A stretch of DNA of 64,000 nucleotides from Verrucomicrobiales bacterium (GTDB lineage: Bacteria > Verrucomicrobiota > Verrucomicrobiia > Verrucomicrobiales > Verrucomicrobiaceae). Each line of letters starts with the position of its first letter. Position 1 is the first letter of the stretch. Of the stretch, positions 33,822 to 36,485 are shown piece by piece. The DNA lies in contig JAYVIO010000332.1 in assembly GCA_043770175.1 (NCBI GenBank), positions 2,213 through 66,212 on the forward strand, written 5' to 3'. The position numbers were made by a program, and so were the translations under genes. The notes under the pieces were generated by a model. The model was not told the origin of the DNA. It was given only the letters and a program-made list of their open reading frames with translations, and made no database searches.

Positions 33822-36485
33822 TCACGGCTGCGGGCCATGATTGAACTCACCCATCAGGACATCCCCGGCAGGCTTCAGATGCACCGGGCCTTTGAAACTG
33901 CTGCCCCCGGTGGGGTTGAGTTTGATCGTCGCCTGCGCCGGGTTGGCCGGATCGTACAGCGCCAGCCCAAAGGCGCTGTCCACCGCCATCGTCGGCACAT
34001 AGCCTGTCACATCATTCGGGTTCACCCGCCACCATACCCACTGCGCGGCGCTGCGCCCAAGCGCACTGCCCAGCATGGCCTGCGCACCGGTGTCGCTGAA
34101 CTGCAATGTCACCCCCGAGGTGGCGGCGTCACCGCTCAAGGAGCCGAGACTCAGCACATTGCCCGCGATGTCCAGATTGCCCGCGATAACGGCGAGGTTG
34201 TTCTCATTGAGCGTGGGCTGGATGCGCGTCCCGTCCATGTAGCCGGAATACACCATCATGCCGTTGCGCAGACGGGCGCTGCCACGCAGGTCGTTGAGCG
34301 TGCCCTGCGTGTTGCCACGCACCGGGTCGGTCACAGTGACCAGCCGCAGGCCGTCTGCGCCTGCGACACCGAGGGCAAGCTGCTGCCCGTCATAATAGCC
34401 CGCGTACAGCGCAGCACCGGTGGCATCCATGCCGGTGTAATGCCACACTGCGTTGCCCACCACGAACGACGCCGGGCCGCTGGCCGGGGCCGCCAGCCCC
34501 CACAGCGCGTTGTTGCTGTTGGGATCGACCGCACAGACCGGCGTTGGGAAACCGCTGTTGGGTCCGCTGCTCTGAAACAGATGCGTCTGCGTATTGTAGG
34601 TGCCGCTGGCCGTGGTGTTGGCGAGATAGTTCGTCAGCGTTGCCAGGCCGCTACCATCCAGGCGGATTTTCATGAGGCAGCCACCACCCACGTTCGTGTC
34701 CGTGCTGTTGGCCGCCGCCGCATTGCCATAGCAGGCCGTGTTGACATTGGAGATCGAGTCTTCCAACGAGGTGCCAAGAAACTGCCAGATGCCCGCGCCC
34801 GTCACCATCAACGCGGGCGGCAGATCCTGCGGCGGCGCATCCCCGGCGAGCCGTAGCGTGCCATCCGCATTGGCCGGGCAGGCCGCCACCAGAGCGGCCC
34901 CATCACTGATCACAAACATGCCTACGCTGTCCACGTTAAGCGTGCCATTGAAGGCACCGATGTTATCACTGCCATTGAGGGTGGCATTGGCCGCATTCAT
35001 CCCGGTCAGATTGAGTTGATAGCCCTCGGGCGACTGAAAAGTGTTGGCTATCGTGCGGGTGTAAAACCGCCCGCGCACCCAGAATGCGGGCGGGCCATAG
35101 ACAGGGTCAGACGGTCCTGGGTCAGGCGGCTGCGGCGGTGACGTTTGAATGTCCATGCTGCTGACCACAAAACTACCACTGTTAAAGGAACCATTGTAGC
35201 TGCCGCCGTACCAGCTCACAGACACATTGCCGGAGCCGGGGTTGCCCGTCGTGCCAGTGATCGTCAACGTGCCGGTACTGCCATTGCCATAAGAGTCGGA
35301 ACGGTTGCCCGCATTGTCCTGAAAACCACCCGTGAAGAGATACTCGGTGCCGTTCACCCACAGTGTCGTGGCGCTGATGAACAGTGGCGTGCTGTAAGTC
35401 GTGCCCGTGTTCGGGTCAGTGTTCGTGCCACTGCCAGGACCGGCTGTTTCCACCGAGTAGCCGCTCACACTGAAACTGCTGCTGGCATAGCTGCCAGCAT
35501 TGGAGCCGTTGATGATGACCGTGGCGCTGCCACCAAGCTGGAAGCCGCGTGCCGAGCCGCTGATGACCACATTCACCCCACCTGCATAGGTGTCATTGAT
35601 GACACCATCAGCGCTGATCGTGGCCGACTGCCAGCATGCCAGCGCGCCATTGACCCAGAACTGAGCAGGCGCGAAGCTCGGCCCCGTGCGCGGCGCAAAC
35701 TGCGGGTTGGAGAAATCATTGTTCACCAGGGTGAAGGAGCCGAGGTACGGATCCCAGCCAGTCACGGCATAAGGCGTGCTGCTCATGCTCGCATAGGCAA
35801 TCGTCAGCCAACCGTCGGCGCTGTTGAAGGAATCCGTCCAGGTGCTGCTTGCCTGCCCGTTGCTGTCATAGGTGGTGGTGGCGGTGCCGGAGGTGAAATA
35901 GAACGTGGTCCCCAGCAGATTATAACTGCCGCTGACTGAACTCGGCGTAGTGGTGCTGGTGTCACTGTTCACATACCAATTGCCATTGAGTTGATAGCCA
36001 CTCTCCGAACCGGTGATGACACCATTGGCGTCCACCGTAAAACTCCCACTCTCACCGCTGTAAGTGGTGACGGTGGTAGTGGTCGTCACTTGCCCGCTCG
36101 GCAGGTCCACCGTGTAGGTCGTCGTGGTACTGGCCGTGCCATAAGCTCTACCGTTGAACGACTGCGAAACCGCGCTGCTGCTGGACTGTACCGTGTCGCC
36201 ATAGGTGCCGCCCAAAAGATAGCCGCTGATGCCGTTTCCTCCCACCGTCGCCAGATTCGGCGCGTTGATCAGCCCCGTTACCGTCACGGTGGCCCCGGAT
36301 AGATTCGTGTAAGTGTCCGTGTGGTAGGTGCCGTCCTCCGTGGCGGAGGTCCAGTCATACGCGACCGCTTGAATGGAAAGCGTCGTGTTTCCAAACAGCG
36401 GGGAGGTTTCGTCCGCCCGTATGGCGGGCAGTATCATGAGGCTGAACAGCGCACTTAGCAGGAGGCAAGGAAGAGTCGGTTTCAT
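33822..36485 (-). CDS. Large secreted Ser/Thr/Gly-rich repeat protein (887 aa)
   Basis: Signal peptide MKPTLPCLLLSALFSLMILPAIRA; recurring P-x-x-(F/L)-(W/M/V)-V-x-G modules; C-terminus ...KPAGDVLMGEFNHGPQP. Confidence 0.8.
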   Translation of the reverse strand: MKPTLPCLLLSALFSLMILPAIRADETSPLFGNTTLSIQAVAYDWTSATEDGTYHTDTYTNLSGATVTVTGLINAPNLATVGGNGISGYLLGGTYGDTVQSSSSAVSQSFNGRAYGTASTTTTYTVDLPSGQVTTTTTVTTYSGESGSFTVDANGVITGSESGYQLNGNWYVNSDTSTTTPSSVSGSYNLLGTTFYFTSGTATTTYDSNGQASSTWTDSFNSADGWLTIAYASMSSTPYAVTGWDPYLGSFTLVNNDFSNPQFAPRTGPSFAPAQFWVNGALACWQSATISADGVINDTYAGGVNVVISGSARGFQLGGSATVIINGSNAGSYASSSFSVSGYSVETAGPGSGTNTDPNTGTTYSTPLFISATTLWVNGTEYLFTGGFQDNAGNRSDSYGNGSTGTLTITGTTGNPGSGNVSVSWYGGSYNGSFNSGSFVVSSMDIQTSPPQPPDPGPSDPVYGPPAFWVRGRFYTRTIANTFQSPEGYQLNLTGMNAANATLNGSDNIGAFNGTLNVDSVGMFVISDGAALVAACPANADGTLRLAGDAPPQDLPPALMVTGAGIWQFLGTSLEDSISNVNTACYGNAAAANSTDTNVGGGCLMKIRLDGSGLATLTNYLANTTASGTYNTQTHLFQSSGPNSGFPTPVCAVDPNSNNALWGLAAPASGPASFVVGNAVWHYTGMDATGAALYAGYYDGQQLALGVAGADGLRLVTVTDPVRGNTQGTLNDLRGSARLRNGMMVYSGYMDGTRIQPTLNENNLAVIAGNLDIAGNVLSLGSLSGDAATSGVTLQFSDTGAQAMLGSALGRSAAQWVWWRVNPNDVTGYVPTMAVDSAFGLALYDPANPAQATIKLNPTGGSSFKGPVHLKPAGDVLMGEFNHGPQP

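What the first reader, a model, noticed from the sequence alone, without database searches (positions are those of the whole stretch)
33822..36485. 887-aa secreted protein built from recurring P-x-x-(F/L)-(W/M/V)-V-x-G modules with a distinctive C-terminal cap
Seen: about five degenerate modules (PAQFWVNG, TTLWVNG, PPAFWVRG, PPALMVTG, PASFVVG) in a Ser/Thr/Gly/Asn-rich body. The C-terminus has GNLDIAGN-type short beta strands and ends GPVHLKPAGDVLMGEF-x-x-GPQP, with no PEP-CTERM or autotransporter barrel. The gene stops 57 nt before the triple-motif gene. Inference: a fibre or passenger subunit whose C-terminal cap may dock the N-domain of the downstream protein; I recall similar gene pairs in Verrucomicrobia but cannot verify this here.
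Basis: partly seen in the sequence, partly recalled or inferred. Interest (0 to 1): 0.65.

Follow-up and report, generated by a model that had tools for sequence, protein, structure and literature searches.

The report
Fibre partner of swappable toxins
This 887-residue secreted, all-beta protein belongs to a diverse set of fibre-like proteins in Verrucomicrobia that share only a short C-terminal tail and are almost always encoded just before a toxin gene with a matching three-repeat N-terminal domain, so the pair probably forms an undescribed way of mounting interchangeable antibacterial toxins on a fibre.

Summary
The five P-x-x-(F/L)-(W/M/V)-V-x-G motifs are conserved in relatives, and each opens a beta-hairpin of a ~95-115-aa module. 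Homology is clear only for M1/M2 and N1/M2. The last ~25 residues, (V/L)R(V/I)xPxGD(I/L)xMGxF..GPxP, are the key feature. Of 77 Verrucomicrobiota loci holding a triple-DYAxxNxGQLK gene with enough upstream sequence, 74 have a cap-ending gene directly upstream. Conversely, 35 of 40 cap hits in 401 genomes lie upstream of such a gene. Five natural fusions place a mini-cap module directly before the N-domain. Cap proteins are otherwise unrelated. Some carry YadA-head or collagen repeats, which are trimer-forming. The N-domain has three homologous YadA-stalk-like repeats in one chain. Its carriers end in Rhs, PT-HINT, Tox-SHH, TNT, amidase or lipase-like domains. Best reading: a Sec-exported, probably trimeric fibre whose C-terminal tip is capped by the single-chain three-repeat adaptor of a polymorphic toxin. 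It resembles MafA/MafB in gene layout and VgrG-PAAR-Rhs in geometry. Physical docking, stoichiometry and the export route are inferred, not shown. I found no published description.

The parts
33822..36485 (-). Gene for the 887-aa secreted, all-beta fibre-like protein (stop codon 33822-33824)
   Evidence: ORF and translation. Seven homologues at 40-47% identity. AlphaFold2 model is all-beta, mean pLDDT 70.8.
36414..36485 (-). Sec-type signal peptide (about aa 1-24, MKPTLPCLLLSALFSLMILPAIRA|DE)
   Evidence: Read from the sequence. pLDDT is below 50 for residues 1-24. Nearly all complete cap proteins have such leaders. No signal-peptide predictor was available.
35721..36413 (-). N-terminal beta region (aa 25-255). 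Relatives vary in the copy number of a GSF(T/S)VAxDGxxSGxESGYxxNGxWYxN unit here.
   Evidence: Family alignment shows insertions of 1-4 extra units in P0004, P0008, P0009 and P0010. N1 against M2 gives hhalign probability 91.7%.
34215..35720 (-). Five ~95-115-aa beta modules (aa 256-757), each opened by P-x-x-(F/L)-(W/M/V)-V-x-G
   Evidence: Motif positions. Invariant columns. M1/M2 probability 98.4%. Strand pattern in the model.
33903..34214 (-). Conserved ~100-aa domain before the cap (aa 758-861: GNLDIxGNVLxLGSL...QW.WWR...M.(V/L)DS...L.LYDP)
   Evidence: Alignment A8. Together with the cap it matches 622 representative clusters at E<=1e-3. About four fifths of the best 150 matches lie at the extreme C-terminus. 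AlphaFold2 confidence is below 50 as a monomer.
33825..33902 (-). C-terminal cap (aa 862-887: SSFKGPVHLKPAGDVLMGEFNHGPQP). G874, D875, M878 and F881 are invariant.
   Evidence: The cap profile hit here scores 49 bits, E 4e-12.
33765..33821 (-). 57-nt spacer between the fibre gene and the toxin-like gene, with no terminator-like site
   Evidence: Coordinates. The terminator scan finds nothing in this interval.
31266..33764 (-). Downstream partner gene: 832 aa, with signal peptide, triple-repeat N-domain, Thr/Gly-rich linker and a variable C-terminal part of unknown activity
   Evidence: Translation. No Pfam or NCBIfam hit. The N-domain is found in 40 of 401 phylum genomes.
33291..33659 (-). Triple DYAxxNxGQLK N-domain of the partner (aa 36-158)
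   Evidence: Alignment A2. The three repeats are mutually homologous, probability 97-98%. YadA_stalk is matched by 23 of 65 members. AlphaFold2 pLDDT exceeds 90 for the same domain in a relative.
30193..31269 (-). Third operon gene: 358 aa, signal peptide, helical, 4-nt overlap with the partner gene. Candidate immunity or accessory protein.
   Evidence: ORF. Low GC of 0.48-0.52, shared with the 3' half of the partner gene. Downstream Imm26 in the relative L002.
29715..39051 (.). 9.3-kb accessory island holding the operon and the divergent Fn3 and collagen-like gene pair
   Evidence: The batA-like gene and smc are adjacent in same-genus genomes G406 and G407. Both operon families are absent from three same-genus genomes.

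Best explanation
The 887-aa protein is the carrier, or fibre, component of a two-gene module that recurs across Verrucomicrobiota.

Shown:
- It has a Sec-type leader and is predicted to be an elongated all-beta protein built of repeated modules.
- It ends in a ~100-aa conserved domain followed by a ~25-residue cap, (V/L)R(V/I)xPxGD(I/L)xMGxF..GPxP.
- That cap is the only feature shared by a very diverse set of proteins encoded immediately upstream of genes whose products begin with a signal peptide and a three-repeat DYAxxNxGQLK domain.
- The two features are linked in both directions, and they are sometimes fused.
- Carriers of the N-domain have polymorphic C-termini that include Rhs shells and recognised antibacterial toxin domains, some followed by immunity genes.

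Inferred:
- Cap proteins are homotrimeric fibres, because some contain YadA-head or collagen repeats.
- The toxin's N-domain is a single chain with three YadA-stalk-like helix-starting motifs, so it acts as a pseudo-threefold plug that seats on the trimeric cap. This would convert a three-chain fibre into a one-chain toxin at 3:1.
- The variable body of the fibre then serves either to hold the toxin on the producer's surface or to bind the target cell.
- The third gene (358 aa) protects or assists.

In this genome the module sits on a 9.3-kb acquired island. The C-terminal end of the toxin-like protein and the third gene have foreign (low) GC, as expected for a swapped cassette.
For: Gene linkage:
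- All six close homologues with downstream sequence are followed 50-160 nt later by an N-domain gene.
- 72 of 81 loci carry a cap ORF directly upstream. That is 74 of 77 among loci with at least 500 nt of upstream sequence.
- 35 of 40 cap-profile hits in 401 genomes pair with an N-domain hit.
- No other neighbouring gene family is conserved.

Fusions: L038, L042, L126, L127 and L128 encode signal peptide, then a 55-70-aa cap module, then the N-domain.

Trimer clues: YadA_head at E 2e-19 in two cap proteins; Collagen plus CBM96 in another.

N-domain:
- Three mutually homologous repeats, hhalign probability 97-98%.
- YadA_stalk is the only Pfam family that recurs, in 23 of 65 members with best E 1.4e-4.
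- A weak match to the BadA motif DANDAVNFGQLK.
- AlphaFold2 pLDDT above 90, with a beta-bridge followed by a long helix at each motif.

Toxin ends: Rhs/YD shell with Imm26; an HEFGH metalloprotease-like end; Amidase_2 in four, PT-HINT in three, DUF900 in three, plus Tox-SHH and TNT.

The target itself:
- All-beta model whose most conserved C-terminal 130 aa is unmodelled as a monomer.
- The C-terminal domain family has 622 clusters, mostly C-terminal.
- The module lies on an island inserted between the batA-like gene and smc.
- GC drops at 30000-32200.
Against: - No physical interaction is shown. In the AlphaFold2 model of a natural fusion the cap segment has pLDDT of about 43-61, so no docking pose can be read.
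- The target itself has no YadA-head or collagen repeat, so its trimeric state is only inferred from relatives.
- In the natural fusions the cap lies in cis on the toxin chain. That fits a 1:1 contact as well as a 3:1 plug.
- The YadA_stalk similarity is sub-threshold.
- The best structural neighbours of the N-domain (SLH domains) have E of about 0.5.
- No outer-membrane export or anchoring component is linked to the pair, so how either protein leaves the periplasm is unknown.
- The C-terminal part of this window's own 832-aa partner has no recognisable toxin domain.
- Three N-domain loci lack a cap gene: L063, L114 and L117.
- Four weak cap hits lie in genomes without the N-domain.
Confidence: 0.6

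Rival explanations
1. Surface anchor, as in MafA. The fibre is fixed to the producer's own envelope through its variable body. Its cap merely tethers the toxin's N-domain at the cell surface for contact-dependent inhibition, with no role in choosing the target.
For: The gene order and logic match MafA/MafB as described by Zhang et al. 2012 (PMC3482391). Some cap proteins carry carbohydrate-binding (CBM96) or adhesin-like (YadA head) parts that could bind the producer's own glycans.
Against: There is no lipobox, transmembrane segment, beta-barrel or known sorting signal in the target. Cap-protein bodies are extremely diverse. That is more typical of target recognition under diversifying selection than of a housekeeping anchor. 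This is a variant of the main explanation rather than an alternative to docking.
Confidence: 0.2
2. Released two-component bacteriocin. Fibre and toxin are secreted as a soluble complex, and the fibre body is the receptor-binding, tail-fibre-like targeting part.
For: Both proteins have Sec leaders and no anchor. Bodies are variable and include lectin-like, collagen and YadA-head parts. Foldseek gives weak resemblance to phage tail fibres and receptor-binding proteins, at E about 1e-4 but TM <= 0.1.
Against: No linked lysis or export genes. Rhs toxins of 2000-3500 aa are usually delivered by contact. The fold matches are not significant.
Confidence: 0.15
3. The cap is a sorting or export signal read by an unlinked machine, in the manner of T9SS CTD or PEP-CTERM signals. 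The adjacency to N-domain genes would then reflect co-regulation, not binding.
For: The motif is short, conserved and at the extreme C-terminus of otherwise unrelated secreted proteins.
Against: Genomes hold only 1-4 caps, and these are almost always next to an N-domain gene. A general sorting signal would mark many unlinked genes. There is no hydrophobic helix or basic tail. In the fusions the cap is internal, directly before the N-domain, where a C-terminal signal could not work. NCBIfam sorting-domain models do not match.
Confidence: 0.04
4. Prophage or tailocin remnant. The protein is a degenerate tail fibre, and the neighbouring genes are unrelated cargo.
For: Tail-fibre-like motifs occur in relatives. 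A collagen-like protein with a weak PHROG tail-fibre match lies in the same island. There are weak BFVD tail-fibre hits.
Against: No PHROG match for the three operon proteins. Sec signal peptides are unusual for virion proteins. No other phage genes appear in the island or in 80 related loci.
Confidence: 0.03

Closest known systems
MafA/MafB polymorphic toxin loci of Neisseria (MAFB-N, DUF1020); Zhang et al. 2012, PMC3482391
   Same: An upstream secreted partner gene, then a toxin with a signal peptide, a conserved lineage-specific N-terminal domain and a swappable C-terminal toxin, then immunity genes. Docking of the N-domain on the partner is likewise predicted from gene order.
   Different: MafA is a conserved lipoprotein. 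Here the partner has no lipobox, and its body is itself hypervariable (collagen, YadA-head, CBM96 or the target's beta modules), with only a ~25-residue C-terminal cap conserved. The N-domain is unrelated to MAFB-N and consists of three YadA-stalk-like repeats. The distribution is phylum-wide, not limited to one genus.
VgrG-PAAR-Rhs of type VI secretion
   Same: By inference, a trimeric beta-rich carrier whose tip is capped by a single-chain pseudo-threefold domain at the N-terminus of Rhs and other polymorphic toxins. Immunity genes lie downstream.
   Different: No VgrG, PAAR or other T6SS family matches in the operon proteins or in conserved neighbours. Both proteins carry Sec leaders, which T6SS substrates lack. 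The 3:1 geometry is not demonstrated here.
Trimeric autotransporter adhesins (YadA, BadA)
   Same: Some cap proteins hold YadA_head repeats. The toxin N-domain motif resembles the YadA_stalk (D-A-V-N-x-x-Q-L) helix-start motif.
   Different: No YadA_anchor beta-barrel is present anywhere. The stalk-like motif occurs three times in one chain on a separate protein rather than once per chain of a trimer. The target itself matches no TAA family.
Phage T2/S16-type long tail fibre tip: gp37 trimer capped by monomeric gp38 adhesin (from my own knowledge, not checked here)
   Same: A monomeric protein attaches through its N-terminal domain to the C-terminal tip of a homotrimeric fibre encoded just upstream.
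   Different: No sequence or PHROG relation. Here the tip protein is a toxin rather than a receptor-binding adhesin, and both proteins are Sec-exported cellular proteins.
CdiB/CdiA two-partner contact-dependent inhibition
   Same: A filamentous, beta-rich exoprotein system that presents polymorphic toxins with cognate immunity.
   Different: No TpsB transporter, TPS domain or FHA repeats. Filament and toxin are separate polypeptides.

Membership tests
Cap-bearing partners of triple-repeat N-domain toxins (family proposed here) | C-terminal (V/L)R(V/I)xPxGD(I/L)xMGxF cap at the end of the protein | tested here: met
   aa 866-887 read GPVHLKPAGDVLMGEFNHGPQP. The cap profile scores 49 bits, E 4e-12.
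Cap-bearing partners of triple-repeat N-domain toxins (family proposed here) | Encoded directly upstream, on the same strand, of a gene whose product starts with a signal peptide and a PxWW / 3x DYAxxNxGQLK domain | tested here: met
   57-nt gap to the 832-aa gene. The same holds in 74 of 77 related loci.
Cap-bearing partners of triple-repeat N-domain toxins (family proposed here) | Sec-type signal peptide | tested here: inconclusive
   The sequence has a typical n-h-c leader ending IRA|DE, and so do nearly all relatives. No dedicated predictor was available.
Cap-bearing partners of triple-repeat N-domain toxins (family proposed here) | Physical binding of the cap to the N-domain | not testable with these tools
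   No multimer folding was available. The monomer model of a natural fusion is low-confidence in the cap.
Trimeric autotransporter adhesin | C-terminal YadA_anchor beta-barrel | tested here: not met
   No Pfam or NCBIfam hit. The protein ends in the cap.
Trimeric autotransporter adhesin | YadA_head, Hep_Hag or YadA_stalk repeats | tested here: not met
   None in the target at E<=0.1. They are present only in other cap proteins and in the partner's N-domain.
Rhs / YD-repeat proteins | RHS_repeat / TEN_YD-shell profile matches and an Rhs core | tested here: not met
   No Pfam hit. Foldseek hits to Rhs and teneurin shells have TM <= 0.08.
PEP-CTERM and other C-terminal sorting domains | Motif followed by a transmembrane helix and a basic tail; NCBIfam model match | tested here: not met
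   No NCBIfam hit. The C-terminus is hydrophilic and ends GPQP.
MafA | Lipobox lipoprotein with a conserved, non-polymorphic sequence | tested here: not met
   No lipobox after the leader. Cap-protein bodies are non-homologous between subfamilies.
T6SS VgrG spike | VgrG/gp27-gp5 domains and linked T6SS genes | tested here: not met
   No Pfam or NCBIfam match. No conserved neighbours beyond the pair. The rest of the genome was not searched for T6SS.
Phage tail fibre | Match to phage tail-fibre families, and a phage gene context | tested here: not met
   No PHROG hit. BFVD matches have TM <= 0.11. No phage genes nearby.

The most novel reading that the evidence does not exclude
The cap and N-domain pair defines a Sec-dependent, T6SS-independent counterpart of VgrG-PAAR. 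A homotrimeric surface fibre would have its C-terminal tip plugged by a single-chain, three-repeat YadA-stalk-like adaptor that carries Rhs and other toxins. This would be a new contact-dependent toxin-presentation apparatus spread across Verrucomicrobiota, in which both the fibre body (targeting) and the toxin end (killing) are exchanged independently around a constant joint.
Probability: 0.35. Interest if true: 0.85.

Novelty: new variant of a known kind. Interest (0 to 1): 0.72.

Why it matters
How Verrucomicrobia, a major soil, freshwater and gut phylum, deliver Rhs and other polymorphic toxins is not known. They largely lack the T5, T6 and T7 leader domains that define the known routes.

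A constant cap and N-domain joint that links freely exchangeable fibres to freely exchangeable toxins would add a trafficking mode to the polymorphic-toxin catalogue. It would also give names to hundreds to thousands of 'hypothetical' proteins:
- The target's C-terminal domain alone has 622 representative clusters.
- The N-domain is present in about 10% of sampled genomes of the phylum.

If the joint proves to be a small, modular trimer-to-monomer connector, it could be tested as a protein-engineering part. The hypothesis can be tested directly with two short recombinant domains.

Tried and rejected
- **Plus-strand reading.** The stated coordinates read on the plus strand are full of stops.
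- **Family libraries.** Pfam, NCBIfam and PHROGs give nothing for the target.
- **Solved structures by sequence.** The C-terminal profile and the whole-family profile give nothing meaningful.
- **Fold search of the full model.**
  - Against PDB and BFVD, TM is at most 0.11, with only generic beta-meander neighbours: OspA, Rhs/teneurin and tail fibres.
  - I do not claim a fold from these.
- **Fold search of the N-domain model.** It returns SLH three-repeat domains at E about 0.5. I keep this as a lead only.
- **Word-index homology search.**
  - It found only 7 relatives, which understated the family.
  - The exhaustive profile search found 622 clusters.
- **Full-length family in other genomes.** It appears in only 1 other of 401 phylum genomes, and there only through its C-terminus.
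- **Mixed alignment for AlphaFold2.**
  - An alignment of caps, N-domains and fusions misplaced the caps on the N-domain, so I dropped it.
  - The replacement, fusions plus N-domains, left the cap with 5 sequences and low confidence.
- **Locus orientation.** Loci fetched by the genome search for minus-strand matches are not re-oriented, so nine of them were unreadable. I replaced them with oriented loci and direct fetches.
- **Mantel test.**
  - Cap against N-domain divergence gives r = 0.35, beyond all 2000 permutations, but only 0.12 among distant pairs.
  - That is consistent with co-inheritance and is not evidence of co-evolution.
- **Promoter and terminator scan.** Hit counts were at chance level.
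- **Tandem-repeat finder on the upstream spacer.** It found nothing.
- **Literature.** Four searches or reads found no description of the cap, the N-domain or the pair.
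Full report
**1. What is at the coordinates**

Read on the plus strand, the interval 33822-36485 is full of stop codons. The gene lies on the minus strand.
- It starts with a Sec-type leader, MKPTLPCLLLSALFSLMILPAIRA|DE.
- It is 53% Gly, Thr, Ser, Ala and Asn.
- It ends ...KGPVHLKPAGDVLMGEFNHGPQP.

It is the first gene of a three-gene minus-strand operon:
- After 57 nt comes an 832-aa protein (ATG at 33764). This protein has a signal peptide followed by three DYAxxNxGQLK motifs.
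- A 358-aa protein with a signal peptide overlaps the 832-aa gene by 4 nt.
- None of the three matches Pfam, NCBIfam or PHROGs.

**2. The repeat observation**

The five motifs sit at aa 276, 375, 468, 559 and 671-677. They fall on invariant columns in the alignment with seven homologues of 40-47% identity.

Profile-profile comparison of the ~100-aa segments:

| Segments | hhalign probability | E-value |
|---|---|---|
| M1 / M2 | 98.4% | 8e-15 |
| N1 / M2 | 91.7% | 8e-7 |
| M2 / M3 | about 57% | 1e-4 |
| M4 / M5 | about 58% | 1e-4 |

The protein is therefore truly repetitive, but common descent of all five modules is not proven.

AlphaFold2, with 14 sequences, gives an all-beta model of mean pLDDT 70.8.
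- Residues 30-750 reach 70-90, and every motif opens a strand-turn-long-strand hairpin.
- The most conserved part, aa 758-887, stays below 50.

Fold searches against PDB and viral models give TM of at most 0.11. The neighbours are only generic beta-meanders: OspA, Rhs/teneurin shells and tail fibres. The fold stays unassigned.

**3. The gene pair in close relatives**

For six of the seven homologues I had the downstream DNA (P0006 was not looked up). In all six, a gene whose product has the same N-terminal triple-motif domain follows within 50-160 nt. What comes after that domain differs each time:
- A 2286-aa Rhs/YD-shell toxin followed by an Imm26 gene (L002).
- A 1311-aa protein ending in an HEFGH metalloprotease-like domain (L003).
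- A 285-aa N-domain protein followed by a separate 2044-aa Rhs protein (L006).
- Others.

**4. The pair across the phylum**

In 401 sampled Verrucomicrobiota genomes:
- The full-length target family occurs only in the window's own genome, plus a C-terminal match in G306.
- The N-domain occurs in 40 genomes, with 62 copies in ORFs of 38 to 3321 aa.

A scan of species-representative genomes with the N-domain profile returned 80 oriented loci. All are from Verrucomicrobiota, including Lentisphaerota, apart from a few likely mis-binned contigs.
- In 72 of 81 loci (the 80 plus this window) the ORF directly upstream on the same strand ends in (V/L)R(V/I)xPxGD(I/L)xMGxF..GPxP.
- Two more loci (L067, L115) show the cap in shorter ORFs.
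- Four loci have too little upstream sequence to judge.
- That leaves three true exceptions among 77 usable loci: L063, which has a transposase upstream, and L114 and L117.

All-against-all clustering of neighbourhood ORFs found no other conserved neighbour family.

**5.

A 29-position cap profile searched in the same 401 genomes gave 40 hits in 30 genomes.
- Comparing coordinates, 35 hits lie upstream, on the same strand, within 6 kb of an N-domain hit. Of these, 29 are within about 1 kb or fused.
- One hit is on a contig with no N-domain hit.
- Four weak hits (E 8e-4 to 7e-3) are in genomes without the N-domain.

A profile of the target's last 126 aa matched 622 representative clusters, 349 of them at E<=1e-10. 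About four fifths of the best 150 matches lie at the extreme C-terminus. I looked up three of these:
- Two are followed by an N-domain gene.
- One is followed by a second fibre paralogue, after which the contig ends.

Cap homologues independent of the N-domain family were therefore not found at this sensitivity. One caveat applies: the cap profile was trained on caps that lie next to N-domain genes.

**6. Fusions and minimal forms**

In five loci the toxin protein itself reads signal peptide, then a 55-70-aa beta segment ending in the cap, then PxWW and the N-domain. In at least four of these a separate cap-bearing gene still lies upstream.

In G143 a 94-aa protein consists of a leader, about 65 aa and the cap. 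It precedes a 1935-aa Rhs-repeat gene, which is followed by a 3241-aa N-domain gene.

So the cap module can work as a unit of about 60 aa. Its C-terminus meets the N-terminus of the N-domain.

**7. What the two partners look like**

Cap proteins range from 151 to 1821 aa and fall into unrelated subfamilies.
- Two have YadA_head repeats at E 2e-19.
- One has CBM96 plus collagen triple-helix repeats.
- Both repeat types are obligate-trimer elements by established knowledge.

The N-domain has three mutually homologous repeats (hhalign 97-98%).
- YadA_stalk is the only Pfam family matched repeatedly, by 23 of 65 members with best E 1.4e-4.
- A weak PDB sequence hit aligns the motif with DANDAVNFGQLK of the BadA head-neck.
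- AlphaFold2 models it at pLDDT above 90, with a beta-bridge followed by a long helix at each motif.
- The nearest folds are three-repeat SLH domains, and those matches are not significant (E about 0.5).

The C-terminal 350 aa of 45 N-domain proteins hit:

| Pfam family | Proteins |
|---|---|
| Amidase_2 | 4 |
| PT-HINT | 3 |
| DUF900 | 3 |
| Tox-SHH | 1 |
| TNT | 1 |
| DUF6973 | 1 |

This is a typical polymorphic-toxin repertoire.

**8. Mechanism proposed**

Shown: an obligate, bidirectional and sometimes fused gene partnership between a conserved C-terminal cap on variable secreted fibres and a conserved three-repeat N-domain on polymorphic toxins.

Inferred:
- The fibre trimerises.
- Its three caps form the last layer of the fibre.
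- The single-chain N-domain, with three stalk-like helix starts, seats on that layer and continues the fibre axis. This turns a three-chain fibre into a one-chain toxin.

The fibre body then either tethers the toxin to the producer or binds the target. I cannot separate these two roles. The export route across the outer membrane is unknown. The fusions fit 1:1 contacts as well as 3:1.

**9. Local context**

The batA-like gene and smc are adjacent in same-genus genomes. Here they are separated by 9.3 kb (29715-39051), which holds the operon and a divergent Fn3 and collagen-like gene pair.

GC is at the genome level (0.60-0.65) over the fibre gene and the N-domain. It falls to 0.48-0.52 over the 3' half of the partner gene and the third gene. 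That is the pattern expected when a toxin and immunity cassette has been swapped behind a constant front end.

**10. Comparison with what is known**

The layout matches MafA/MafB of Neisseria (PMC3482391). The inferred geometry matches VgrG-PAAR-Rhs, or a tail fibre capped by a monomeric tip protein. The sequence motifs point to trimeric autotransporter adhesins.

Membership in each of these families fails on defining features. There is no lipobox, no T6SS domains, no YadA anchor and no phage families (see the membership table).

Zhang et al. 2012 list no such Verrucomicrobial leader domain, and three further literature searches found none.

I treated it as a lead and re-derived the evidence independently.

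Noticed in passing
window 29715-39051: A 9.3-kb island lies between the batA-like gene and smc, which are adjacent in same-genus genomes G406 and G407. It holds the three-gene operon (minus strand) and a divergent pair (plus strand).
   Followed up: yes
window 36645-36833: The spacer upstream of the fibre gene carries about eight ATGAnnTCAT-like half-palindromes at roughly 21-nt spacing (for example aatgaactcat, aatgaattcatt, aatgagttcatt). This may be an operator array between the divergent operons. Tandem Repeats Finder reports nothing.
   Followed up: partly
window 36895-37701 and 37803-38789 (+): A 268-aa protein ends in an Fn3-like domain and is followed by a 328-aa collagen-like / tail-fibre-like protein with four NPGxxATVQTxFDGxNVRxxFGIPRG units and no cap. 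In three other loci the Fn3 family sits directly upstream of the cap gene on the same strand. The 328-aa protein has a weak PHROG tail-fibre match.
   Followed up: partly
window 30000-32200: GC falls to 0.48-0.52, against about 0.60-0.65 around it, over the 3' half of the 832-aa gene and the 358-aa gene. This suggests a recently swapped C-terminal cassette with its partner gene.
   Followed up: partly
L131 (G143:C14:13500-21500); same layout inferred in G317 and G122: A variant locus: a 94-aa mini cap protein, then a 1935-aa signal-peptide Rhs-repeat protein ending in a dockerin-like DVNRDGQVDAADV motif, then (4-nt overlap) a 3241-aa N-domain protein.
   Followed up: partly
L086, L091, L095, L096, L064, L068 (cap region): A subgroup of collagen-type cap proteins has an RGD tripeptide inside the cap (LPRGD(I/V)SMG, EPRGDLAMG). 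This is probably coincidental but recurs.
   Followed up: no
L135 7398-9281: A second fibre paralogue with the same PPAVxVxG module motif follows a cap protein directly. Tandem cap-bearing genes also occur in G308, G245 and G074, so some loci encode two or more fibres per toxin.
   Followed up: no
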